Below the pieces are notes generated by a model. The model searched no databases, was not told the DNA's origin, and saw only the letters and a program-made list of their open reading frames with translations. A stretch of 32,000 bases of DNA, taken from Candidatus Syntropharchaeum caldarium (lineage in GTDB: Archaea > Halobacteriota > Syntropharchaeia > Syntropharchaeales > Syntropharchaeaceae). The stretch lies in NCBI GenBank assembly GCA_001766815.1, contig LYOS01000001.1, positions 240,001-272,000 of the forward strand. The letters are read 5' to 3'. Both the position numbers and the translations under genes were made by a program. Below, one piece after another: positions 16,515 to 27,621 of the stretch. Every line of letters starts with the position of its first letter. Positions within the stretch are counted from its first letter, which is position 1.

Positions 16515-17804
16515 TTGAAGATCGATCCATGGGGTTCTGTCAGGATTGAGGATTATTCAAAGCTCTTTGATGAGTTCGGGATAGCGCGGTTTGAGGGAAT
16601 GCTCAGGAAGCTTCCAGATGCCCACAGGCTCATGCGAAGAAAGGTGATATTTGGACATCGTGGTTATGAGATGATCGTGGATGCCATCGTAAGAGGTGAG
16701 CCTTTTGCGGTCATGAGTGGGTTTATGCCCTCCGGTAAGGTCCACCTTGGCGGAAAGATGGTGATGGAGGAGATAATCTACCATCAGCAGATGGGGGGTG
16801 ATGCTTTTGTTGCGATCGCTGATATGGAGGCCCACTCAGTGAGAGGGATTTCATGGCGAGACTGTGAACGGCTCGGGGTTGAAGAGTACATCCTGAGCTT
16901 AATCGCACTTGGATTTAAGCCTGAAGGCCACATCTACTTCCAGTCAAAGTCCAGAACAATCCAGGATCTTCTATTTGAGCTTGGATGTGGGGTCAACTTC
17001 ACAGAACTTTCAGCAATCTATGGTCTAAAGAGTGATACAAAGATCTCACATCTTACGAGTGTTCTTGCACAGAGTGCTGACATCCTGCAGCCCCAGCTTG
17101 AGGAATTTGGAGGTCCAAAGCCGACTGTGATCCCTGTTGGAGCAGATCAGGATCCACACATCAGACTTGCAAGGGATGTGGCAAACAGGATGCGGATGTT
17201 CTTTGTCGAGGCACGGGAGGGTTATATCAGCATCAGGGGGAAAGACATCGATAAAAAGATGCTGGAAAAACTTGAACAGATGTTTGATTGTAAAAGTAAG
17301 TTATATGAGGCGCATCTTGATCTCTACGGAGATTACACGCTCGATGAGGTCGATCGGATCGTTAGAGAGTTTGAGATTAAACTCGGCGGCTATGGCTTCA
17401 TCCCGCCTGCTTCAACCTACCACAGGTTCATGAGCGGGCTTACAGGGGGGAAGATGTCATCAAGTATCCCAGAGAGTTTCATCGCACTCACAGAGCCCCC
17501 TGAGTCTGCAGCCAGGAAAGTCATGCGTGCAAAGACCGGTGGCAGGGTAACACTCAAAGAACAGCAGGAGCTTGGCGGAATCCCTGAGGACTGTTCAGTC
17601 TATGATCTCCTGCTATTCCATCTTGTGGAGGATGATCATGAGGTTGAGGAGATCTACAGAGAATGTGTGAATGGTAAACGAAGCTGCGGCACGTGTAAGA
17701 AGCTTGCAGCAGAGCTTATAACCGGGTTTTTGAAGGATCATCAGGATCGGCGGGAGGATGCAAGGTTGAGATTGAAGGAGTATGAGGTTGTTGGGGTGAT
17801 TTAA
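16515..17804 (+). CDS. trpS: tryptophan--tRNA ligase, archaeal/eukaryal type, with an internal insertion and a C-terminal Cys motif
   Basis: TTG start. DPWG...DY.KL...FG N-terminus, a HIGH-like [29 protein letters not shown]. 429 aa. Confidence 0.85.
17685..17795 (+). repeat. left copy of a 111-bp direct repeat (codons 391-427 of trpS)
   Basis: Aligned by hand to 18681-18791: 106/111 identical, in the same reading frame. The 5 differences are 4 synonymous changes and 1 Glu->Asp. Confidence 0.95.
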
Positions 17805-17921
17805 TTCACCAAATAAGTTCAGCAAAAGCTTTTACAAGTATTCGTTGCTCTGAGAGAAACATTCTACAAAGTGGCTCATTTCCCATCACTTTATAAAACA
17901 CCTGTCAAGTATATGTGATTA

Positions 17922-17929
17922 TTTATATA
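17922..17929 (+). promoter_or_regulatory. TATA-like box (TTTATATA) upstream of the orphan insertion gene
   Basis: Located 24-31 nt upstream of the ATG at 17953, spacing consistent with a leaderless or short-leader archaeal transcript. Confidence 0.3.
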
Positions 17930-17952
17930 CTATACGGGAGATCTTTTACACG

Positions 17953-18660
17953 ATGTCGAGATTTAGACTAAGTAAAAAGCTAACCTCTTATGAAATTACG
18001 TTGAAGCTTTTAAGCAGTATTGAGGATTATTTGCTTACTAAAGTACCTAAAATAATAAATACAAATTCCAATGATATTAAAAAGGAGTATTCTATCTCAA
18101 TTACTGATGATACGGGGACTGAGGAGATTGAAAGCATAAAGGACTATTCTTTATCATCCTTCCCAGACTTTACAGAAAAAATTGATATTTCTTTAACACA
18201 TTATTCTCCAAAGATTTTACAGGTGGACATTGTATTTAGTGATAGACTTTTTTCACGGATTGAAGTGAACTATACAGGAGAAAACGCCAGAGAAATTACG
18301 ATTTCTATCTATGAAGGAATCCTAAGAATTTTGGAATCTTCTAAAACGACTAATTTCAGATACCACCATTCATTTATTGAAACTTCATTATTTGTATCTG
18401 GAGCGTTTCTTTCTGGATTTGCCATATCTAGTTTTAGTACAGGGTCATATGCTGCTGCAGTAACAGCAATAATTCTCCTTTTATTGATTATTCTTTATTT
18501 TGTGGTGGGAAAGAGAATCCATCCCTACACCTTATTTGAGTCACGAAGAGCGGACACTTATAAAAGATGGTGCGATTGGTTCTTCTACAGCGTCCTTGGT
18601 TTCATTCTATTCGATGTTGTGTTAATGGCTATACTAATAAAATTCTATGAGATATCATAA
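17953..18660 (+). CDS. orphan membrane protein (about 140-aa soluble N-domain plus 2-3 C-terminal TM helices)
   Basis: 235-aa ORF in roughly 30% GC DNA. Hydrophobic segments are SLFVSGAFLSGFAISSF, AAAVTAIILLLLIILYFVV and WFFYSVLGFILFDVVLMAILI. No family recognised. Confidence 0.55.
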   Translation: MSRFRLSKKLTSYEITLKLLSSIEDYLLTKVPKIINTNSNDIKKEYSISITDDTGTEEIESIKDYSLSSFPDFTEKIDISLTHYSPKILQVDIVFSDRLFSRIEVNYTGENAREITISIYEGILRILESSKTTNFRYHHSFIETSLFVSGAFLSGFAISSFSTGSYAAAVTAIILLLLIILYFVVGKRIHPYTLFESRRADTYKRWCDWFFYSVLGFILFDVVLMAILIKFYEIS

Positions 18661-18680
18661 TACGTTGTGCAAAAAAGATA

Positions 18681-18791
18681 TGTGGCACCTGTAAGAAGCT
18701 TGCAGCAGAGCTTATAACCGGGTTTTTGAAGGATCATCAGGATCGGCGTGATGATGCCAGGTTGAGATTGAAGGAGTATGAGGTTGTTGGG
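18681..18791 (+). repeat. right copy of the 111-bp direct repeat
   Basis: See the left copy. It begins at the CGTC codons and diverges after ...EYEVVG. Confidence 0.95.
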
Positions 18792-18809
18792 TTGGAAGTT
18801 GAGAGATAG
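18681..18809 (+). pseudogene. displaced, start-less 3' fragment of a trpS gene ([42 protein letters not shown])
   Basis: In-frame TrpRS C-terminus with a different tail (LEVER* versus VI*). The frame is closed by TGA at 18648-18650 and has no start codon. Confidence 0.8.
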
Positions 18810-18950
18810 ATTACGATAGCTGGGTGATATCATAGAATATTTGACGCGTTTATCTAAAACTAATTAACATACAATTTCCATTTTTATTTACTAAATCAGC
18901 AAAGTATATTTATTGAGATCACCAAATTATACAGGGGTATTGGTGAGACA

Positions 18951-20024
18951 ATGGAAAAAGATCGTGAATGTTCTGGCCAGATCAGCATCGACTTTCTCAT
19001 TGGGATATCGCTATTCCTGCTGACGCTCGTATTTCTTGTTCAGTTCATACCGACGGTCTTTGTATCTTTCGGATCAGAATCGATCGACCTCAGTTCGGTT
19101 GCATACAGAACATCCGTGATTCTTGTGGAAGATCCCGGGTGCTGGAACAACTCTGCAACCTTGAGAACTGAATCTGACTGGGAGAACCATGTAGATCGCA
19201 CGACAAGAGTTGGACTTGCAATCGATAAGAACCATCCAAATATCTTAAATTTATCGAAGATTGAGGCGTTTGCAGATACTGTAAATCTTCCTGATTCAAA
19301 CCTGTCCCAAAACCTTGTTCTATACAGGAAAATTGGCGGAAATGATATTTTTTACGGATATAACATAACTTTAACAGATTCTAAGGGTAATCGGTGGAGC
19401 AGAGGAGAAACACTACCTCAGAGCGGAAATCTCGCAAAAGTTGAAAGGTTAACTCTCATCAACACATCTGAGTATGGCTGGATTGATACAGATAAATATT
19501 TTTTAGGAGCCGGTAACCCGTCAAAAGCACTCATAAGAATACCAAATTCAAGTGTTGCGGAGTTCTGCAATGATGATCTCTACTTCTACCTAACAAACTT
19601 CAATATCACAGGAGCAAACCCAAAGTATGTCTCCACTAAGATGGTTCAAACAAACATCAGCAACGAGACAGGAGATAACCTGGTTGATACCGGTAACGGT
19701 ATCCATATCAAATTGGGATCAGGCACGACATTAAACCAACCATCAGATGGATATACGAGACTTAACGGCGTATATCAAGGCGATCTTAATACTAATGTAG
19801 ATATAAACTCTTCTACAGATTTACTTGAGCTTGTGATAAATCAAAGCGCCTTCACAAGAGCGGGCTTTAACATAACAGATCCTGTGTCTGAGGATATATT
19901 CATCGAGTTCAACCTCAACCACATCGAATGTGAAGAAGAGCATTTTCCCTACAACCTGACCTGTTACAACGATACGCTCCAAAATGTTCACAGGATATGC
20001 AATCTGGAGGTGTTGGTGTGGTAA
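18951..20024 (+). CDS. pilin-like secreted glycoprotein with a class III signal peptide (G|QISIDF type)
   Basis: N-terminus MEKDRECSG|QISIDFLIGISLFLLTLVFLV. 14 N-X-S/T sequons counted by hand. RBS GGTGAG upstream. Confidence 0.7.
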   Translation: MEKDRECSGQISIDFLIGISLFLLTLVFLVQFIPTVFVSFGSESIDLSSVAYRTSVILVEDPGCWNNSATLRTESDWENHVDRTTRVGLAIDKNHPNILNLSKIEAFADTVNLPDSNLSQNLVLYRKIGGNDIFYGYNITLTDSKGNRWSRGETLPQSGNLAKVERLTLINTSEYGWIDTDKYFLGAGNPSKALIRIPNSSVAEFCNDDLYFYLTNFNITGANPKYVSTKMVQTNISNETGDNLVDTGNGIHIKLGSGTTLNQPSDGYTRLNGVYQGDLNTNVDINSSTDLLELVINQSAFTRAGFNITDPVSEDIFIEFNLNHIECEEEHFPYNLTCYNDTLQNVHRICNLEVLVW

Positions 20025-20590
20025 GGGGATTTTTAAGCGATGAAAGCGGTCAGCTCCATACGATTGAAGGGCTTGCAGCAGCAGGAATCATGATCGCAAC
20101 CCTCTTTGCGGTGATGGAGGGGGCGGTGATCATAACACCACAGACAGGGCTTGCGCTCGATGCAAACCTGAAGCAGATCGGGGATGACGCACTTGCTGTG
20201 CTTGACGCCTACGATCCTTTTGATGGAATCATACTGAAGCACTATGTTGCAGTCTGGAACAACACAACAAACAATGAGATTATTTATGACACGATTACAT
20301 TTGGAAAAGGTGGCCAGAATGCGCTCAACACGAGTTTGAACAATCTACTTCCAGATGATATCCTGTTCAATGTGGATTTTGTATATGTGAACCATTCCAA
20401 CCAGTCAGATATTACCGTTTGCAGGGTTATAGATAACGGGGAGCCTGGAACCGATGCAGTAGTCTCACGACGCCTCGTCACGCTCTTTGCAAACGAGTCT
20501 GATTATACGCTATCGCCCTACTGGAACTCAACTGTATCTGTAAATGATCCACAGGTTGTGGAGGTGAGGCTGACGCTATGGCAGGTATAA
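19997..20590 (+). CDS. pilin-like protein with a class III signal peptide (SG|QLHTIEG type)
   Basis: N-terminus ...LSDESG|QLHTIEGLAAAGIMIATLFAV. About 7 sequons. The start is ambiguous (ATG 19997 or GTG 20021), and both overlap the upstream gene. Confidence 0.65.
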   Translation: MQSGGVGVVRGFLSDESGQLHTIEGLAAAGIMIATLFAVMEGAVIITPQTGLALDANLKQIGDDALAVLDAYDPFDGIILKHYVAVWNNTTNNEIIYDTITFGKGGQNALNTSLNNLLPDDILFNVDFVYVNHSNQSDITVCRVIDNGEPGTDAVVSRRLVTLFANESDYTLSPYWNSTVSVNDPQVVEVRLTLWQV

Positions 20591-21000
20591 AATCTTTACT
20601 TCGGTCAGATGATGGACAGTGGATCATCATCTCAGGCCTGATCGTTGCAATCGGGCTTATCATCCTATCCGTTCTCCTGAATCAGGCGATGATAAGTGGG
20701 GGAAAAGCATCTGAGGCTGTACTCGACTTTCCAAAAAGTGATATAAGAGAGTTCAGATGGGAGATATATCGGTGGACAAACCAGAATGTGACAAAGATGA
20801 ATGAGGTCGCACAGATCAGAAACCTTACAAATCAGACCAGACTCCTCTATGGTGCAAGGGGAATATCCGTGAACTTCTCGGTGATAGAGATAAATGCAAC
20901 CAATCAGACTGCAAATGTTACGATCTTCATAACCGATGGCACGACCACGTGCAACTACAGACACGAGTTTATCCAGTGTGATGAGATGGGGGAGGGATGA
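20578..21000 (+). CDS. pilin-like protein with a class III signal peptide (DG|QWII type)
   Basis: MAGIKSLLRSDDG|QWIIISGLIVAIGLIILSVLL. 7 sequons in 140 aa. Overlaps the upstream gene by 13 nt. Confidence 0.65.
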   Translation: MAGIKSLLRSDDGQWIIISGLIVAIGLIILSVLLNQAMISGGKASEAVLDFPKSDIREFRWEIYRWTNQNVTKMNEVAQIRNLTNQTRLLYGARGISVNFSVIEINATNQTANVTIFITDGTTTCNYRHEFIQCDEMGEG

Positions 21001-21001
21001 G

Positions 21002-21454
21002 ATGAAGCAAAAAAGCGGGATTATCAACGATGAAGAGGCAGTCTCAACCACGTTGGGGTATCTCTTTATGAGTGGGATAGCGATGATCTTTCTTGCAATC
21101 GTAATGGTGAGTTGCGTAAATATGTTCGTGGATAACCCTGCTAGGGTTGTTATGCGAACCGGGTTTACAGACGTCGGAAATGAGATCAGCACAAAGATAG
21201 TCGATATCTACATCATCTGTCCTGACAATGGAACGCTCACAACAGACCTCACAATGCCAGCAGAGATTGGGGGTGAGCAGTATGAGGTAAATGCAGCCAT
21301 CGGGAGTGGACAGGATCAGATGATCGAAGTTGCAAGCGATGACGGTAAGGTTACAATGAGAATGACGATAAACGGGATCGCTGAGAGTGTTTCTGTGACC
21401 GGAAGTACGATGAGTGGTGAGTGGGAACATCAGATTTATTACAATTCATCTTGA
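21002..21454 (+). CDS. archaeal type IV pilin N-terminal domain protein (EEA|VSTTLGY type)
   Basis: MKQKSGIINDEEAVSTTLGYLFMSGIAMIFLAIVMV resembles the D.RAVSPVIG pilin_N (DUF1628-like) motif. ATG 21002 is preferred over 20936 because GGAGGG lies 6-7 nt upstream and the start abuts the previous stop. Confidence 0.65.
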   Translation: MKQKSGIINDEEAVSTTLGYLFMSGIAMIFLAIVMVSCVNMFVDNPARVVMRTGFTDVGNEISTKIVDIYIICPDNGTLTTDLTMPAEIGGEQYEVNAAIGSGQDQMIEVASDDGKVTMRMTINGIAESVSVTGSTMSGEWEHQIYYNSS

Positions 21455-21467
21455 ATGGGGGTTTTAA

Positions 21468-22235
21468 ATGCGGAAGAAACAAATGATACTGGATGAGGAT
21501 GCAGTTTCAGAGGCGCTTGGTTTCATACTTGTCTTTGCGATCATAACACTTTCGATCGGGATCATCTACGTTGTTGGATACCCTGCGATACAGGATTCGA
21601 AGGATCGTGCGCAGATGAGAAATATGGAGAAGAACTTCATTGTGCTCCAGAGCAGTATCGAGACAGTAGCACTGGGGCAGTCGCCTGTGAAGACGATACG
21701 GATGGGACTTGGTGGCGGGACGATCACCGTGGATGGATCGGGTGGCGCTCTCTCGGTCACAGCCCCGAATATCAGCTACAATGGATATGTGGGAAACATT
21801 ACATACGAGATGGATGGTCGCCAGATCATCTATGAGAATGGCGGCATCTGGTCCAGATACCCATCTGGTGGTTCTGTTGAAATTTCAAGCCCGAAAATCA
21901 GCCTGAGGAAGGATTCCAGTGACTTGAGGTATCTCACGGTCTCAATCATTGAGATAAACAGCTCGATCTCATCTGCAGGTGGGGATGGAATAATAACATT
22001 CACAATTGAAAGCGCGGATCAGACCACATCAGCACCTCAGATCGAAAATACAGCAGGCACAGCATGGATAAATATAACGACCAGCACGCCAGATGCATGG
22101 GCGCGGTACTTCAGAGAACTGAATGATACAGCAGGCGGTGGTGTGAGTGTGACCTCGGGCACGATGACGTGTAACGCCAGCATTCAGTACGACCGTTTCG
22201 TGATGAACAATCACAGCGTGGATGTCAGGGTATAG
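21468..22235 (+). CDS. archaeal type IV pilin N-terminal domain protein (DEDA|VSEALGF type)
   Basis: MRKKQMILDEDAVSEALGFILVFAIITLSIGIIYV. About 7 sequons. Last gene of the five-gene operon. Confidence 0.7.
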   Translation: MRKKQMILDEDAVSEALGFILVFAIITLSIGIIYVVGYPAIQDSKDRAQMRNMEKNFIVLQSSIETVALGQSPVKTIRMGLGGGTITVDGSGGALSVTAPNISYNGYVGNITYEMDGRQIIYENGGIWSRYPSGGSVEISSPKISLRKDSSDLRYLTVSIIEINSSISSAGGDGIITFTIESADQTTSAPQIENTAGTAWINITTSTPDAWARYFRELNDTAGGGVSVTSGTMTCNASIQYDRFVMNNHSVDVRV

Positions 22236-22261
22236 TTACTAACTTGAAGTAATAGTTACTA
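22232..22261. repeat. 10-bp direct repeat ATAGTTACTA x2 (22232-22241 and 22252-22261)
   Basis: Read directly. The first copy contains the TAG stop of the last pilin-like gene. Confidence 0.8.
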
Positions 22262-22446
22262 CCTTAAATTTAGAATATATTTTTTAGGTATTAACTAATA
22301 CTTTTTAGTATATACAATCTTTTAATGTCTTTCTTAGAACTTATTAAAGTTTTAATATTTAGAAATTATAAAAATTCTGAGTGCTTCTTTTTGGAATTAG
22401 AAAAACCTCGACCGATATCCTTAAATAGAATGGTGTGCCATAATAC

Positions 22447-22594: not shown

Positions 22595-23629
22595 TCATCT
22601 TTTTTCATTCCTGAATACGATGTTAAGACCCAGGAGGCTACCTGCAATGATATTCATGTAGTAGGTGATGAACCTCCATGTAAGAACCAGAACACCAAGC
22701 AAGGAAGTCTTTACAAAGAACGAGAAGGTTGTTGTGAATCCAAGTTCAGCAACACCGCTGCTTCCCGGGGTAAGTGGAATAAAAACAAGTATCAGTAGCA
22801 CGACCTGTGATGCAAAGGCCATCAAAACCTCTGGATCTTCGCCAAATCCCATCAGGATTAAACAGGGAATCATAAACTCAAGTGACCAGTAGATGATTGT
22901 GCACAGCCATGCAAAAAAAACTCTGGCCCTGGAAACACGGATAAATCTCCGCAGAGAAGAGAGAAAAACATCCACCTCTGCAGATATTCTGGTGATTAAT
23001 TGCTTTGATCTTTCACCACCCATAAAAAGACGGAGTATACTGTAAATTAATGAAAATCTATTTTTAATCCACGCCGGACGACATATCGCATGGATAATAA
23101 TGATAACGATGAAGATCAGCATAATTACAGAGGCGGTAATGAACAACTGCACCCTGGGACCAGTATGAGATAGCACATTCCTGAGAAGGAATATCGCAAT
23201 TGGTGAGATCAAGAGGATAAAAAGAAGGTCGAGAAGACGTTCAAAGAGAACAATCGCACCTGCATCGCCAATCCTTACACCACCCTTCTTTGCGATCAGA
23301 TATGCTCTGACTGGCTCACCTCCTGCGTGTGATGGAGTTATCGCAGCACCAAAGAGACTTGCAACCACACTTCTAACTGCATCTCGTGTTGTGAGCATAC
23401 CGCCAAGCGCATCACTCAGCACCTTTATTCGCACTCCCCAGACGATCCATCCGAGGATGTGGAATATCACGCCGAGAAGAAGGTAAAACGGGGAGATCCT
23501 GTTGATGATTTCTATCGTCTCTTTTGTAGCAGTTACGTGAAAAACCAGGAATATAGAGAGGATACTTACAATAATTGCAATCAGAAGTGAGTGCCCGATA
23601 TACCACTGTTTCTTCTCATCCCAGATCAT
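22595..23629 (-). CDS. flippase-like / LPG-synthase-TM family (UPF0104) polytopic membrane protein
   Basis: 344 aa with about 8 TM helices. GGEPVRAYLIAKK and IPLTPGSSGVAELGF resemble the conserved motifs of that family, recalled from memory. Confidence 0.6.
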   Translation of the reverse strand: MIWDEKKQWYIGHSLLIAIIVSILSIFLVFHVTATKETIEIINRISPFYLLLGVIFHILGWIVWGVRIKVLSDALGGMLTTRDAVRSVVASLFGAAITPSHAGGEPVRAYLIAKKGGVRIGDAGAIVLFERLLDLLFILLISPIAIFLLRNVLSHTGPRVQLFITASVIMLIFIVIIIIHAICRPAWIKNRFSLIYSILRLFMGGERSKQLITRISAEVDVFLSSLRRFIRVSRARVFFAWLCTIIYWSLEFMIPCLILMGFGEDPEVLMAFASQVVLLILVFIPLTPGSSGVAELGFTTTFSFFVKTSLLGVLVLTWRFITYYMNIIAGSLLGLNIVFRNEKR

Positions 23630-23881: not shown

Positions 23882-24394
23882 TCATCTCCTTCTCAGGAAT
23901 TGGAGTGAGTTCAGAAAAGATGGATGATCAACGACAGGGGTGCGTTCGAGAACATTGGGTTTGCTTGTAACCTCCGGGATATCATTGTGCACGAAGATAT
24001 CAAGAAAACGCTGTGTCAGCTCGGAGATTGTGTCCTCTTCGGAATCCTGCTGTTTTTCAATTTTAGATGCAGTAAATGACTTTTGTTTATCGGTAGATCT
24101 GGTCTCTGAAAGAGCTTTCTTTGAAAGACCCTTCGAGATTGCCCGCCCCCGTTCCCTTGCACCTTTTTTCTTGCTGAGAGCGTATATTTTCCGGATTTCC
24201 TCTTCTAACTGATATTTTTTTGCTTCTGCCAGTATTTTTGCATACTCTTTGTCCACCCATCCAATTTCAGAGTGGCGATAATATCCAACCTCATAGCCAA
24301 GATTACGGGTTAATTTTAAAAGTGAACGTCTGATTTTATCTCTCTCTGACTTATCTTCAGTATTGGCTTTTTGTTTCCTGAATAGAAGTATCAT
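23882..24394 (-). CDS. hypothetical charged (Lys/Glu/Arg-rich) protein downstream of the KaiC-like ATPase
   Basis: 170-aa ORF starting 8 nt after the KaiC-like stop. No family recognised. Confidence 0.5.
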   Translation of the reverse strand: MILLFRKQKANTEDKSERDKIRRSLLKLTRNLGYEVGYYRHSEIGWVDKEYAKILAEAKKYQLEEEIRKIYALSKKKGARERGRAISKGLSKKALSETRSTDKQKSFTASKIEKQQDSEEDTISELTQRFLDIFVHNDIPEVTSKPNVLERTPVVDHPSFLNSLQFLRRR

Positions 24395-24402
24395 AAGACT
24401 AC

Positions 24403-25170
24403 CTACTCTATCTTGCCACCTACCATAAGTCCATTGCTTGTAAATTTTGCTTTGTGAATGTTGCAGTCATGTTTCGTGCCCCGCATCTTTATTACCTGGA
24501 TACCCCTTGTCATCCTGTTCTTTGCAGGATCAAAAAAATTGTGCATAAATATCACACCATCTGCTGCAAAGTGCTCGATCGTATAGGTTGAAGGGTCTGT
24601 CATCTCGGAGAGAATGATCGTTGTACAGCCAAGACTCTTCAGATTTCTGATGAAACGGCTGATTGATTTTTCCTCTGTTGCGTAATCATCGTGCAGGAAT
24701 CTGATGGCAGAGATTGAGTCAATAACAACCCTCGTTATTCCATGATCAGTCACATATTCCCGTATCTTCTCAAAGATATATCTTGGGGATGGAATATTAT
24801 CGGGGGACCCATAGTCCTGCATCGGATAATCAAACTGCTCCTGTGCACCATACATGGCAGAGGGTCCAAGATCTACAAAGTGCAGCTTCTTGAGTTCTAT
24901 CAGCTTTGGAAGATTGAAGGCGTAATTTGACATATCGGCAACGATACTGTCGACCGTCTCATTCAGCGTGATATATGCTCCATACGATCCATTCATCGCA
25001 CCCTGTGCTAAAAACTGTGTGGAGAAGGTCGTTTTACCGCTCCCAGGCGGTCCTGACGTCACATACACACGCCCAGCAAGCAGTCCACCTTCGATGATCT
25101 CGTCAAACCCTTTTATACCTGTTGGCTCTCTTGCTACACTTATGCCAATACCCCCTTGAATATTATTCAT
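24403..25170 (-). CDS. single-domain KaiC/RecA-superfamily ATPase (COG0467-like)
   Basis: TGIKGFDEII.GGL..G, Walker A GPPGSGKTT, Walker B VVIDSIS, and a C-terminal IKMRGT.H motif. Confidence 0.8.
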   Translation of the reverse strand: MNNIQGGIGISVAREPTGIKGFDEIIEGGLLAGRVYVTSGPPGSGKTTFSTQFLAQGAMNGSYGAYITLNETVDSIVADMSNYAFNLPKLIELKKLHFVDLGPSAMYGAQEQFDYPMQDYGSPDNIPSPRYIFEKIREYVTDHGITRVVIDSISAIRFLHDDYATEEKSISRFIRNLKSLGCTTIILSEMTDPSTYTIEHFAADGVIFMHNFFDPAKNRMTRGIQVIKMRGTKHDCNIHKAKFTSNGLMVGGKIE

Positions 25171-27384: not shown

Positions 27385-27621
27385 ATGAAAGAGGACATAA
27401 AAGCCATCTTAAAATTATGGGGTATTATCTACCCATTTGCGATGGCAGTGATTCTCTATATAACCTTCCTGATGATCTTCTTTGCCGAAGAAAAGGCGGC
27501 AGTCATTACGGTGAACGAATATGGAGAAGGTGTAGCAGAATTCCTTACAATACCCATTGCACTGGTTTTTGCCGGTCTTGGGCAAATACTCCTAATAAAG
27601 GAAGCGTACCCACGCAAATAG
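27385..27621 (+). CDS. small 2-TM membrane protein
   Basis: 78 aa. GGAGGT RBS 6 nt upstream of the ATG. Two hydrophobic helices. Preferred over the overlapping alternative-frame ORF 27339-27662. Confidence 0.5.
   Translation: MKEDIKAILKLWGIIYPFAMAVILYITFLMIFFAEEKAAVITVNEYGEGVAEFLTIPIALVFAGLGQILLIKEAYPRK

What the first reader, a model, noticed from the sequence alone, without database searches (positions are those of the whole stretch)
18951..22235. Stand-alone five-gene operon of pilin-like, sequon-dense proteins without ATPase, platform or peptidase
Five consecutive, overlapping or abutting genes each begin with a short polar leader followed by a roughly 20-aa hydrophobic helix, which is the class III signal peptide architecture.
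- Three carry G|Q at the predicted cleavage site: SG|QISIDF, SG|QLHTIEG and DG|QWII. The first closely resembles the G|Q(I/V)S.E(F/L) N-termini of Methanococcus Epd pilins, as I remember them.
- Two carry the (D/E)A|VS..LG pilin_N motif.
- They are unusually rich in N-X-S/T sequons. My hand counts are 14, about 7, 7, 2 and about 7, which implies heavily N-glycosylated surface structures.

No PilB/ArlI-type ATPase, TadC/ArlJ-type platform protein or prepilin peptidase is present in the 32 kb. The operon sits directly after the integration scar and before an AT-rich spacer, so it may be horizontally acquired.

A set of five distinct pilin-like subunits is more than a simple major/minor pilin pair, and one of them has a 357-aa globular domain. 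The set could therefore specify a tip complex, an adhesin or another non-canonical surface filament.
Basis: partly seen in the sequence, partly recalled or inferred. Interest (0 to 1): 0.66.

Follow-up and report, generated by a model that had tools for sequence, protein, structure and literature searches.

The report
Unlinked archaeal type IV pilin cassette
The five genes are a real, heavily glycosylation-prone set of pilus subunit genes, but they are the already catalogued subunit module of a common euryarchaeal type IV pilus, here simply encoded apart from its assembly motor in an alkane-oxidising archaeon.

Summary
Five co-oriented genes (18951-22235) each start with a short polar leader, a G/A, and one roughly 20-30 aa hydrophobic segment. 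N-X-S/T sequon counts are exactly 14/7/7/2/7, about 14 times the density of the window's other ORFs. No PilB, PilC or prepilin peptidase lies in the 32 kb.

The "stand-alone, non-canonical" reading does not hold.
- The genes match Pfam DUF7287, DUF7288, DUF7261 (weakly), DUF7266 and DUF7289, in that order.
- In haloarchaea, and in a contig whose first subunit is 47% identical, this order sits directly downstream of pilB-pilC.
- By gene order and size it looks like the clade-2 ("PilB4-type") pilin set of Makarova et al. 2016. They list an unlinked copy in Archaeoglobus fulgidus.
- In Ca. Syntrophoarchaeum, Methanolobus and relatives the cassette is regularly unlinked from the motor.

Most likely mechanism: subunits of a glycosylated adhesive pilus, assembled by machinery encoded elsewhere in the genome.

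One new detail: the head domain of gene 1, with part of gene 2, is swapped between otherwise 97-100% identical cassettes (33% versus 98% identity). This suggests a diversifying exposed adhesin.

Verdict: new member of a known, experimentally uncharacterised kind; modest interest.

The parts
18773..18950 (+). Upstream control region of the cassette. It is AT-rich, with TATA-like TATATTTATT about 40 nt before the start codon and a GGTGA ribosome-binding site at 18943-18947.
   Evidence: Read directly from the sequence. Identity to the Ca. Syntrophoarchaeum sp. 12019_3 cassette (L003) begins abruptly at 18773 at 97-99%. Promoter function is inferred.
18951..20024 (+). Gene 1: long-form DUF7287 pilin-like protein, 357 aa. 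Leader MEKDRECSG|Q, Asp at +5, conserved stalk (residues 1 to about 166), variable beta-rich head (about 167-343), 14 sequons.
   Evidence: Pfam DUF7287 E=1.3e-15, 58.7 bits against a cutoff of 27. The AF2 model has pLDDT 90.5 and no PDB fold match. Among 24 homologues, residues 9-105 are 71-77% identical and residues 167-343 are 27-31% identical.
19266..20429 (+). Swapped or hypervariable segment: gene 1 residues about 106-357 plus gene 2 residues 1 to about 145.
   Evidence: Window versus L003 is 41-57% nt identical at 19266-20029 and 53-84% at 20030-20429, against 97-100% on both sides. Window versus S. butanivorans is 64-83% in this segment. Protein identity of the head is 33% to L003 and 80% to S. 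butanivorans. The second allele was recovered again in metagenome contig L034.
19997..20590 (+). Gene 2: DUF7288 pilin-like protein, 197 aa. It has the conserved motif G|QLHTIEG followed by the hydrophobic domain, and 7 sequons.
   Evidence: Pfam DUF7288 E=2e-24, 87.5 bits against a cutoff of 27. The [RK][GA]QxHT[ILV]E[GA] motif is conserved in Methanolobus and haloarchaeal orthologues.
20578..21000 (+). Gene 3: short DUF7261-related pilin-like protein, 140 aa. Leader ...SDDG|QWIIISG, 7 sequons.
   Evidence: Pfam DUF7261 scores 21.3 bits, below the cutoff of 27. A profile-profile comparison with long DUF7261-position proteins gives probability 96% and E=3.8e-9 over about 95 N-terminal columns. 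It holds position 3 in all cassettes.
21002..21454 (+). Gene 4: DUF7266 protein, 150 aa (the ORF is open from 20936). Leader MKQKSGIINDEEA|VSTTLG. It is one of the two smallest subunits and has the fewest sequons (2). It is the candidate major pilin.
   Evidence: Pfam DUF7266 E=3.3e-12. The start at 21002 comes from the gene call on an identical contig. EAVS fits the FlaFind 1.2 motif. Position 4 in Archaeoglobus sets is arCOG03926, the 'predicted major pilin'; this mapping rests on order and size only.
21468..22235 (+). Gene 5: DUF7289 protein, 255 aa. Leader MRKKQMILDEDA|VSEALG, 7 sequons. It is probably the signature minor pilin of clade-2 systems.
   Evidence: Pfam DUF7289 E=1.1e-36, 127 bits. 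The AF2 model (pLDDT 87.6) shows a 58-residue N-terminal helix followed by an all-beta domain. The family has 564 cluster representatives at E<=1e-10, with lengths near 250 aa and near 450-590 aa, as described for arCOG02911.
22236..22330 (+). AT-rich 3' spacer with oligo-T runs, a likely transcription stop.
   Evidence: Read from the sequence. Function is inferred.

Best explanation
The five genes are the subunit (pilin) module of a euryarchaeal clade-2 type IV pilus, the 'PilB4-type' system of Makarova et al. 2016. Here the module is encoded apart from its motor.

**Inferred mechanism**
1. The five precursors insert into the membrane by their N-terminal hydrophobic helix.
2. A class III signal peptidase of the PibD/FlaK family, encoded elsewhere, removes the 8-18 residue leaders after the conserved G or A.
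3. The archaeal oligosaccharyltransferase loads the many N-X-S/T sites with glycans.
4. A PilB ATPase and PilC/TadC platform, encoded elsewhere in the genome, assemble the subunits into a filament.

**Inferred roles within the set**
- The small, sequon-poor DUF7266 protein (gene 4) is the best candidate for the repeating major subunit.
- DUF7287, DUF7288, the DUF7261-like protein and DUF7289 are low-copy minor pilins that prime or cap the fibre.
- The long-form DUF7287 protein (gene 1) presents a variable, heavily glycosylated head. This head is the likely contact or adhesion surface.

**Shown:** family membership, conserved gene order, linkage to pilB-pilC in other lineages, signal-peptide-like N-termini, sequon enrichment and head-domain variability.

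**Inferred:** cleavage, glycosylation, assembly in trans, and which subunit is major or sits at the tip.
For: - **Families.** Pfam hits above the gathering score were found for DUF7287, DUF7288, DUF7266 and DUF7289. DUF7261 was weak for gene 3 but was confirmed at profile level.
- **Gene order.** The same order recurs in Methanolobus, in a haloarchaeal-type contig and in about 20 genome loci.
- **Linkage in haloarchaea.** In Halohasta, Halegenticoccus and Halalkalicoccus the order is pilB(PilB3_N+T2SSE+PilB3_C)-pilC(T2SSF)-DUF7287-7288-7261-7266-7289 in one string.
- **Linkage in a closer relative.** In L031 pilB-pilC directly precedes a long-form DUF7287 (47% identical), DUF7288 and a DUF7261-like gene. 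MinD-like and KaiC-like ATPases sit alongside.
- **Literature.** Makarova et al. describe this multi-pilin clade-2 system. They describe trans use of pilin sets by ATPase/TadC modules and list the Archaeoglobus order arCOG06117-04652-07777/06552-03926-02911.
- **N-termini.** They are conserved position by position across lineages, and haloarchaeal orthologues fit the FlaFind motif.
- **Structure.** Gene 5 is modelled as a long N-terminal helix followed by a beta domain.
- **Glycosylation sites.** Sequon density is 14-fold above the window background and is conserved in the Syntropharchaeia/Methanosarcinales branch.
- **Variable head.** The head domain is variable and swapped between cassettes.
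Against: - No motor, platform or peptidase gene could be shown for this genome. Only 32 kb were visible, and the genome-wide search could not be run.
- Genes 1-3 fail the strict FlaFind 1.2 motif: Ser at -2 in genes 1 and 2, Trp at +2 in gene 3. Gene 2 has a second possible site, EG|LAAAG.
- Neither AF2 model has a significant match to any solved pilin, and sequence searches of the PDB found nothing.
- Pilin_N (PF07790) is not reached: 14.1 bits against a cutoff of 25.2, and only 3 of 17 family members give weak hits.
- The arCOG-to-Pfam mapping, and therefore the 'major pilin' label for gene 4, rests on gene order and size, not on a sequence comparison.
- No pilus of this type has been characterised experimentally. 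The role of PilB4 is 'to be established'.
Confidence: 0.75

Rival explanations
1. The five proteins form a short pseudopilus or another membrane-proximal assembly, not a long adhesive pilus. Such an assembly could be a secretion or uptake piston, or an S-layer/bindosome-type anchoring complex. It would still use a PilB/PilC motor. Its logic would resemble the five pseudopilins of bacterial type II secretion or the ComG competence pilus.
For: - The set is five distinct pilin-like proteins, the same number as GspG-K or ComGC-GG (established knowledge).
- No abundant small PilA-type major pilin gene lies in the cassette or the window.
- Gene 4 only weakly resembles Pilin_N.
- Makarova et al. leave the roles of most of these subunits open.
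Against: - No sequence or fold similarity to pseudopilins was found. The only hit is NCBIfam PRK10574 at E=0.034 over the N-terminal helix, and Foldseek gave nothing.
- A large, variable, sequon-rich head domain suits an exposed surface better than a buried piston.
- The related 4C-type pilin locus of Halobacterium has been tied to adhesion and thin filaments.
Confidence: 0.12
2. The cassette is an orphan. It would be a transferred or left-behind pilin module that no motor in this genome can assemble, so it would be silent or decaying.
For: - There is no motor in 32 kb here, nor within 10 kb in two other Syntrophoarchaeum genomes.
- The flanks differ in each genome, and a DDE transposase lies next to the L003 copy.
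- A truncated cassette is seen in L031.
Against: - All five ORFs are intact in three Syntrophoarchaeum genomes that are only 63-80% identical at protein level. Start contexts, overlaps and sequons are conserved.
- Unlinked cassettes are the rule in about 15 Methanolobus/Methanosarcinales loci, and M. psychrophilus has four clade-2 ATPases elsewhere in its genome.
- Stalk regions are conserved while the head varies, which looks like selection rather than decay.
Confidence: 0.06
3. The proteins are ordinary type II membrane-anchored glycoproteins. Their N-terminal helix would be an uncleaved signal anchor, and they would not be filament subunits.
For: Three of the five fail the strict FlaFind motif. 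No solved pilin relative was found.
Against: - G/A at -1 and the residues after it are conserved position by position from haloarchaea to Syntrophoarchaeum.
- The genes are physically operonic with pilB-pilC in several lineages.
- Gene 5 is modelled with a 58-residue helix, far longer than a membrane anchor needs.
Confidence: 0.05

Closest known systems
Clade-2 euryarchaeal type IV pilus with its own multi-pilin set ('PilB4-type', Fig. 4B of Makarova, Koonin & Albers 2016; Pfam DUF7287/DUF7288/DUF7261/DUF7266/DUF7289)
   Same: - The same five protein families occur in the same order.
- Leader and cleavage-site motifs match at each position.
- The DUF7289-type subunit is prone to duplication and occurs in roughly 250-aa and 450-590-aa forms.
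- The pilin set can be encoded apart from ATPase/TadC, as in A. fulgidus AF0751-0756.
   Different: - The motor is not adjacent here.
- Gene 1 is a long form with an extra variable head of about 190 aa.
- Gene 3 is a short form (140 aa against about 285-330 aa).
- The -2 residue of genes 1 and 2 is Ser rather than Lys or Arg.
- Sequon density is about three times that of haloarchaeal orthologues.
- The extra large DUF7289+DUF7305/7308 gene seen in haloarchaea and Methanolobus is absent.
Haloferax volcanii PilA1-6 adhesion pili assembled by PilB3/PilC3
   Same: - Pilins are encoded away from the motor and assembled in trans.
- The D/E/R-A|VS cleavage motif is the same as in genes 4 and 5.
- N-glycosylation modulates function (reviewed in PMC4371748).
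   Different: PilA1-6 are small paralogous major pilins with a shared H-domain. Here there are five non-paralogous families in a fixed operon order.
Methanococcus maripaludis Epd pili (clade 1, EppA-processed)
   Same: Gln at +1 after Gly in three of the five proteins. An acidic residue at +5 in gene 1. Several minor pilins are needed in that system.
   Different: - These are different protein families and a different ATPase clade.
- Two of the five proteins use A|V.
- Haloarchaeal orthologues also carry G|Q. By my recollection haloarchaea have only PibD, so Gln at +1 would not imply EppA here.
Bacterial minor-pilin or pseudopilin sets (GspG-K, ComGC-GG, FimU-PilVWXE)
   Same: One operon of about five different pilin-like proteins. 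A small probable major subunit is combined with several larger low-copy ones, one of which carries a bulky head. This is an analogy of logic only.
   Different: No detectable sequence or fold homology beyond the N-terminal helix.
Sulfolobus Ups pili (UpsA/UpsB)
   Same: The functional idea is similar: a variable pilin region could set recognition specificity between cells. This is recalled from the literature, not tested here.
   Different: Different ATPase clade (4), different pilin families, and only two pilins.

Membership tests
Archaeal type IV pilin-like proteins (class III signal peptide) | A short charged leader, G or A at -1, then a single hydrophobic stretch of about 20 aa or more at the extreme N-terminus. 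| tested here: met
   All five proteins have one Kyte-Doolittle segment starting at residue 8-25 and none elsewhere. The motifs are conserved in orthologues.
Archaeal type IV pilin-like proteins (class III signal peptide) | FlaFind 1.2 motif [KRDE][GA][ALIFQMVED][ILMVTAS] (PMC4307647). | tested here: inconclusive
   Genes 4 (EAVS) and 5 (DAVS) pass. Genes 1 (SGQI) and 2 (SGQL) fail at -2, and gene 3 (DGQW) fails at +2. Gene 2 has an alternative site, EGLA. Haloarchaeal orthologues RGQT, RGQA and RGQL pass. My regex is not the full FlaFind program.
Archaeal type IV pilin-like proteins (class III signal peptide) | Pilin fold: a long N-terminal alpha-helix packed against a beta-rich globular domain. 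| tested here: met
   Gene 5 is modelled with a helix at 11-68 followed by an all-beta domain, pLDDT 87.6. Gene 1 is modelled with helices at 13-38 and 47-60 followed by beta domains, pLDDT 90.5. Neither has a significant match to a solved pilin.
Archaeal type IV pilin-like proteins (class III signal peptide) | Cleavage by a PibD/FlaK/EppA peptidase and incorporation into a filament. | not testable with these tools
   This needs proteomics, electron microscopy or genetics.
Clade-2 'PilB4-type' pilin set (DUF7287-DUF7288-DUF7261-DUF7266-DUF7289) | Each protein belongs to the corresponding family. | tested here: met
   Four of the five score above the Pfam gathering score. Gene 3 scores 21.3 against 27 bits, but hhalign gives probability 96% and E=3.8e-9.
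Clade-2 'PilB4-type' pilin set (DUF7287-DUF7288-DUF7261-DUF7266-DUF7289) | Conserved gene order 1-2-3-4-5 on one strand, with overlapping or abutting genes. | tested here: met
   The Archaeoglobus order is in the paper's supplementary table.
Clade-2 'PilB4-type' pilin set (DUF7287-DUF7288-DUF7261-DUF7266-DUF7289) | Adjacency to a clade-2 pilB-pilC/tadC pair. This is frequent but not obligatory according to Makarova et al. | tested here: not met
   None in the window. The pair is present next to the cassette in haloarchaea and in L031, and absent in the Methanolobus, Syntrophoarchaeum, L032 and L033 loci.
Clade-2 'PilB4-type' pilin set (DUF7287-DUF7288-DUF7261-DUF7266-DUF7289) | Sequence identity of these Pfam families with arCOG06117/04652/07777/03926/02911. 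| not tested
   The mapping rests on gene order, gene sizes and the paper's descriptions.
Pfam Pilin_N (PF07790) / PilA family | A score above the gathering threshold of 25.2 bits. | tested here: not met
   Gene 4 scores 14.1 bits, E=0.088. Only 3 of 17 DUF7266 members give weak hits, the best at E=0.0032.
Methanococcus Epd pilins / EppA substrates | Gln at +1 and an acidic residue at +5, with EppA present. | tested here: inconclusive
   Gln at +1 is present in genes 1-3. An acidic +5 is present only in gene 1 (Asp), and gene 2 has Glu at +6. No Epd sequence was compared. The presence of EppA in the genome could not be tested.
Bacterial pseudopilins / minor pilins | Sequence or fold homology to the GspH-K, PilVWX or ComG families. 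| tested here: not met
   The only hit is NCBIfam PRK10574 at E=0.034 over the helix of gene 5. There are no PDB sequence or fold hits.

The most novel reading that the evidence does not exclude
The long-form first subunit, together with part of the second, is a modular and exchangeable recognition head. Alleles would move between Syntrophoarchaeum lineages by recombination. They would set which partner cells, kin cells or surfaces the pilus binds in syntrophic alkane-oxidising consortia. Alternatively, the variation could be driven by viruses that use the pilus as a receptor.

The evidence so far:
- Two head alleles are only 33% identical, yet they sit on cassettes that are otherwise 97-100% identical.
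- One of these alleles is closer to the head of another species (80%) than its own stalk is to that species' stalk (70%).
- The alleles carry 14 and 24 glycosylation sequons.
Probability: 0.2. Interest if true: 0.6.

Novelty: new member of a known kind. Interest (0 to 1): 0.3.

Why it matters
The finding assigns a function class to five 'DUF' genes in Ca. Syntrophoarchaeum. This is an uncultured butane/propane oxidiser that lives in tight consortia with sulfate reducers. In such consortia cell-cell contact and extracellular filaments are thought to matter for electron transfer (PMC9539880, PMC10322722).

It also shows that this pilin module is habitually separated from its motor in the Syntropharchaeia/Methanosarcinales branch. 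Genome annotators who look only next to pilB/pilC will miss it.

The swapped, hyper-glycosylated head domain is a concrete candidate for the surface that mediates partner or surface recognition. It could be followed in metagenomes and metatranscriptomes.

The system type itself is already catalogued, so the finding does not open a new category.

Tried and rejected
- **Literature search for the five DUF names:** no paper found.
- **NCBIfam:** no family for genes 1-4. Gene 5 gave only chance-level hits.
- **PDB sequence search** with gene 1 and with a DUF7289 profile: nothing meaningful.
- **Foldseek against the PDB** with both confident AF2 models: no hit at E<=0.001 and TM scores below 0.2, so no fold assignment for either globular domain. 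The full-length queries include the long helix, which may depress global scores.
- **First locus search** with a 9-sequence alignment failed because no conserved stretch was available. A 3-sequence alignment worked.
- **Metagenome scan** with gene 5 returned only one locus, L034.
- **Rfam on the whole window:** no hit.
- **tRNA scan:** no tRNA, so the repeat is not a tRNA-type att site.
- **KaiC-like ATPase at 24403-25170 as a cassette-linked regulator:** it is only 26% identical to the KaiC-like gene beside pilB in L031 and is not conserved next to the cassette in S. butanivorans, so the link is not supported.
- **78-aa ORF at 27385-27621 (KA|IL motif) as a stand-alone major pilin:** it has two hydrophobic segments and no beta domain, so this is unlikely.
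- **Recent transfer versus rearrangement:** I could not tell whether the near-identity to L003 reflects one or the other. The two stretches share no other gene from which to calibrate genome divergence.
- **Motor and peptidase in this genome:** I could not locate them.

Full report
**1. What is in the sequence**

The window carries five co-oriented ORFs on the + strand:
- 18951-20024 (357 aa)
- 19997-20590 (197 aa)
- 20578-21000 (140 aa)
- 20936-21454 (172 aa)
- 21468-22235 (255 aa)

Gene calls on identical public contigs agree with these, except that gene 4 starts at 21002 (150 aa). The genes overlap by 28 and 13 nt, then abut, then leave a 13-nt gap. This fits a single operon.

The operon follows an AT-rich region with a TATA-like element and a GGTGA ribosome-binding site. 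Oligo-T runs follow it.

Each protein has exactly one hydrophobic segment, at its N-terminus.

Sequon counts are exactly 14, 7, 7, 2 and 7. That is 3.37 per 100 aa, against 0.24 in 29 other ORFs of the window. Four of the five exceed composition-preserving shuffles.

A relaxed class-III-site scan of both strands of the 32 kb picks out these five genes. The only other hits are internal helices of polytopic membrane proteins and one small two-TM ORF.

**2. The neighbourhood**

Pfam scans of every ORF of at least 100 aa show housekeeping genes:
- a histidine kinase and response regulator
- SepRS
- a CoA ligase-GNAT fusion
- a P-type ATPase
- KARI
- TrpRS
- a flippase-like membrane protein
- a KaiC-like ATPase
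- a dCTP deaminase-like protein
- CcmB/ABC transporter components
- ribosomal proteins

There is no T2SSE ATPase, no T2SSF platform and no A24 peptidase. HMMs built from haloarchaeal PilB and PilC found nothing in the six-frame translation of the window.

The closest database relatives are from Ca. Syntrophoarchaeum/Syntropharchaeales.

**3. What the genes are**

Four proteins pass the Pfam gathering score:
- gene 1: DUF7287
- gene 2: DUF7288
- gene 4: DUF7266
- gene 5: DUF7289

Gene 3 hits DUF7261 below threshold. A profile-profile comparison joins its short family to the long DUF7261-position proteins at 96% probability and E=3.8e-9 over the N-terminal ~95 columns.

The order 7287-7288-7261-7266-7289 recurs widely:
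- in Methanolobus, with up to three cassettes in 20 kb
- in ANME-1 (Methanophagales) fragments
- in other Methanosarcinales
- in two further Syntrophoarchaeum genomes

In Halohasta, Halegenticoccus and Halalkalicoccus the same five families follow directly after pilB and pilC. There pilB carries PilB3_N + T2SSE + PilB3_C and pilC carries T2SSF.

In metagenomic contig L031 the first subunit is a long form, 47% identical to gene 1. On that contig pilB-pilC is followed, after one small inserted PDDEXK_3 gene, by DUF7287-DUF7288-DUF7261-like. MinD-like and KaiC-like ATPases sit next door.

Makarova, Koonin and Albers (2016, PMC4858521) describe this architecture as the second clade-2 euryarchaeal system, typified by the H. 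volcanii PilB4 locus. According to them it has its own pilin set, including:
- a PilA-related predicted major pilin, arCOG03926
- the signature minor pilin arCOG02911, which is 250-550 aa and prone to duplication

Their supplementary table lists the order arCOG06117-04652-07777/06552-03926-02911 in three Archaeoglobus species. In A. fulgidus the set is flanked by TFE and Rpl7Ae, so it is unlinked from a motor.

They also argue that ATPase/TadC modules use pilin sets in trans.

My mapping of Pfam families to these arCOGs rests on order, size and description. It does not rest on a sequence comparison.

The DUF7289 family is large: 564 cluster representatives at E<=1e-10. It has the expected two length classes.

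**4. Signal peptides**

The published FlaFind 1.2 motif is [KRDE][GA][ALIFQMVED][ILMVTAS].
- Genes 4 (EAVS) and 5 (DAVS) fit. These are the same sites as H. volcanii PilA pilins.
- Genes 1 and 2 have Ser at -2, and gene 3 has Trp at +2, so they fail the strict pattern.
- The sites are nevertheless conserved position by position. Haloarchaeal and L031 orthologues read RGQT, RGQA and RGQL, or RGQL, KGQL and RGQW.
- Gene 1 has Asp at +5.
- Gene 2 has a conserved QxHTxE[GA] block. It also has a second possible site directly before the hydrophobic domain.

The Gln at +1 resembles Methanococcus EppA substrates. It is also present in haloarchaeal orthologues. The resemblance to Epd pilins is therefore one of motif only; no Epd sequence was compared.

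**5. Structure**

AlphaFold2 with 47-sequence alignments gave confident models.
- Gene 5 (pLDDT 87.6) has a 58-residue N-terminal helix followed by an all-beta domain, which is the pilin layout.
- Gene 1 (pLDDT 90.5) has N-terminal helices followed by beta-rich domains.

Neither model matches a solved structure at E<=0.001. Sequence searches of the PDB were empty.

**6. Linked or unlinked**

PilB/PilC HMMs hit only the haloarchaeal loci. L031 carries pilB-pilC according to its precomputed Pfam annotation.

They hit nothing within 10 kb of the cassette in these loci:
- the three Syntrophoarchaeum genomes
- about 15 Methanolobus/Methanosarcinales loci
- L032 and L033

Being 'stand-alone' is thus the normal state in this branch, not a peculiarity of this window.

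In Methanolobus the cassette is instead accompanied by a giant 1,850-2,180-aa protein on the opposite strand. In L001 this protein is annotated with VWA and Big_1 domains. A second-type cassette with an extra large DUF7289 gene also accompanies it.

**7. A new detail: the swapped head**

The comparison with Ca. Syntrophoarchaeum sp. 12019_3 (L003) shows a mosaic pattern.

| Window region | Identity to L003 | Content |
|---|---|---|
| 18773-19265 | 97-100% nt | upstream region and gene 1 stalk |
| 19266-20029 | 41-57% nt | gene 1 residues 106-357 |
| 20030-20429 | 53-84% nt | gene 2 N-terminal part |
| 20430-22298 | 95-100% nt | rest of the cassette |
| flanks | unrelated | |

At protein level the gene 1 stalk (residues 1-105) is 98% identical to L003 and the head is 33% identical. 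Against S. butanivorans the stalk is 70% identical and the head 80%.

Both alleles were recovered independently. The window allele occurs on two Logan contigs. The L003 allele occurs on JGI contig L034.

Among 24 long-form homologues the stalk is 71-77% identical and the head 27-31%. The L003 head carries 24 sequons.

This pattern is what one expects of an exposed, diversifying contact surface. I regard it as the most interesting feature of the locus.

**8. The 'integration scar'**

A 114-nt direct repeat (17685-17798 and 18681-18794, 95% identical) duplicates the 3' end of trpS. It brackets a 0.9-kb, 35-37% GC insert with one 235-aa membrane ORF.

The cassette lies outside this insert, so the repeat says nothing direct about how the cassette arrived. 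Different flanks in three genomes and a transposase next to the L003 copy do suggest that the cassette moves or recombines. I could not separate transfer from rearrangement.

**9. Verdict**

The five genes are the pilin module of a known euryarchaeal type IV pilus type that has been described computationally but not characterised experimentally. Here the module is unlinked from its motor.

The most likely mechanism has three parts:
- leader cleavage by a class III peptidase
- heavy N-glycosylation
- assembly in trans by a PilB/PilC pair

Within the fibre, gene 4 is the probable major subunit. The other four are probable minor subunits, with gene 1 presenting a variable head. Cleavage, glycosylation, assembly and subunit roles are all inferred.

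Novelty: a new member of a known kind. Interest is modest. It is raised a little by the head-domain swap and by the host, a syntrophic alkane oxidiser in which extracellular filaments are under discussion.

Noticed in passing
window 17685-17798 and 18681-18794 (insert 17799-18680): A 114-nt direct repeat (95% identical) duplicates the 3' end of the TrpRS gene. It brackets a 0.9-kb, 35-37% GC insert. The insert encodes a 235-aa protein with C-terminal membrane helices and no family match. No integrase or tRNA lies nearby. It looks like the remnant of a site-specific insertion into the end of trpS.
   Followed up: partly
window 22595-23629 (- strand); L004 11121-12146: A flippase-like membrane protein (Pfam LPG_synthase_TM, TIGR00374) lies convergent to the cassette. 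It is conserved in that position in S. butanivorans (55% identical) but not in L003. A lipid-linked glycan or lipid flippase next to hyper-glycosylated pilins could be functionally connected. This was not tested.
   Followed up: partly
window 24403-25170 (- strand), with the 170-aa ORF at 23882-24394: A single-domain KaiC/RecA-like ATPase lies 2.2 kb downstream of the cassette. Makarova et al. note KaiC-family ATPases near clade-2 pilus loci, and L031 has two beside pilB. The window protein is only 26% identical to the L031 one and is not next to the cassette in S. butanivorans.
   Followed up: partly
L001/L007-L023 (Methanolobus and relatives), e.g. L007 11009-16903 (- strand): In Methanolobus/Methanosarcinales the orthologous cassette is almost always followed, on the opposite strand, by a giant 1,850-2,180-aa protein. 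In L001 this protein is annotated with VWA and Big_1 domains. The cassette is often preceded by a second-type cassette with an extra ~490-aa DUF7289+DUF7308 gene. Up to three cassettes occur in 20 kb.
   Followed up: partly
L018 5236-7554 (also L017 5391-7550): A 720-770-aa protein with a C-terminal archaellum ArlD/E-type domain (Pfam Arch_fla_DE) lies immediately upstream of the pilin cassette in two Methanosarcinales-type MAG contigs.
   Followed up: no
L025 3595-5448 (Halohasta litchfieldiae CP024845) versus L024: In the sequenced isolate the pilB gene in front of the cassette is cut down to a 252-aa C-terminal fragment beside a DDE transposase. A second IS copy interrupts the downstream histidine kinase. 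A metagenomic contig that encodes an identical fifth subunit (P0110) has pilB intact (1,055 aa).
   Followed up: no
L003 5670-6560 (- strand): A DDE_Tnp_1 transposase lies about 0.9 kb upstream of the near-identical cassette copy in Ca. Syntrophoarchaeum sp. 12019_3. The flanks of that copy share nothing with the window.
   Followed up: partly
L031 9460-9846 and 13233-14022: In the pilB-pilC-linked relative, a PDDEXK_3 gene sits between pilC and the first pilin. The cassette stops after the third gene and is followed by a DUF3368/UPF0175 pair, possibly a toxin-antitoxin pair. This version lacks the DUF7266 and DUF7289 genes.
   Followed up: no
window 27385-27621 (+ strand): A 78-aa ORF in an AT-rich spacer starts MKEDIKA|ILKLWG..., which fits the FlaFind motif. 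However, it has two hydrophobic segments and no globular part. It is probably a small hairpin membrane protein rather than a pilin.
   Followed up: partly
all cassettes compared: Across lineages the position-4 (DUF7266) protein always has the fewest N-glycosylation sequons (0-2). The long-form position-1 protein has the most (8-24). Haloarchaeal cassettes are about three-fold poorer in sequons overall.
   Followed up: partly
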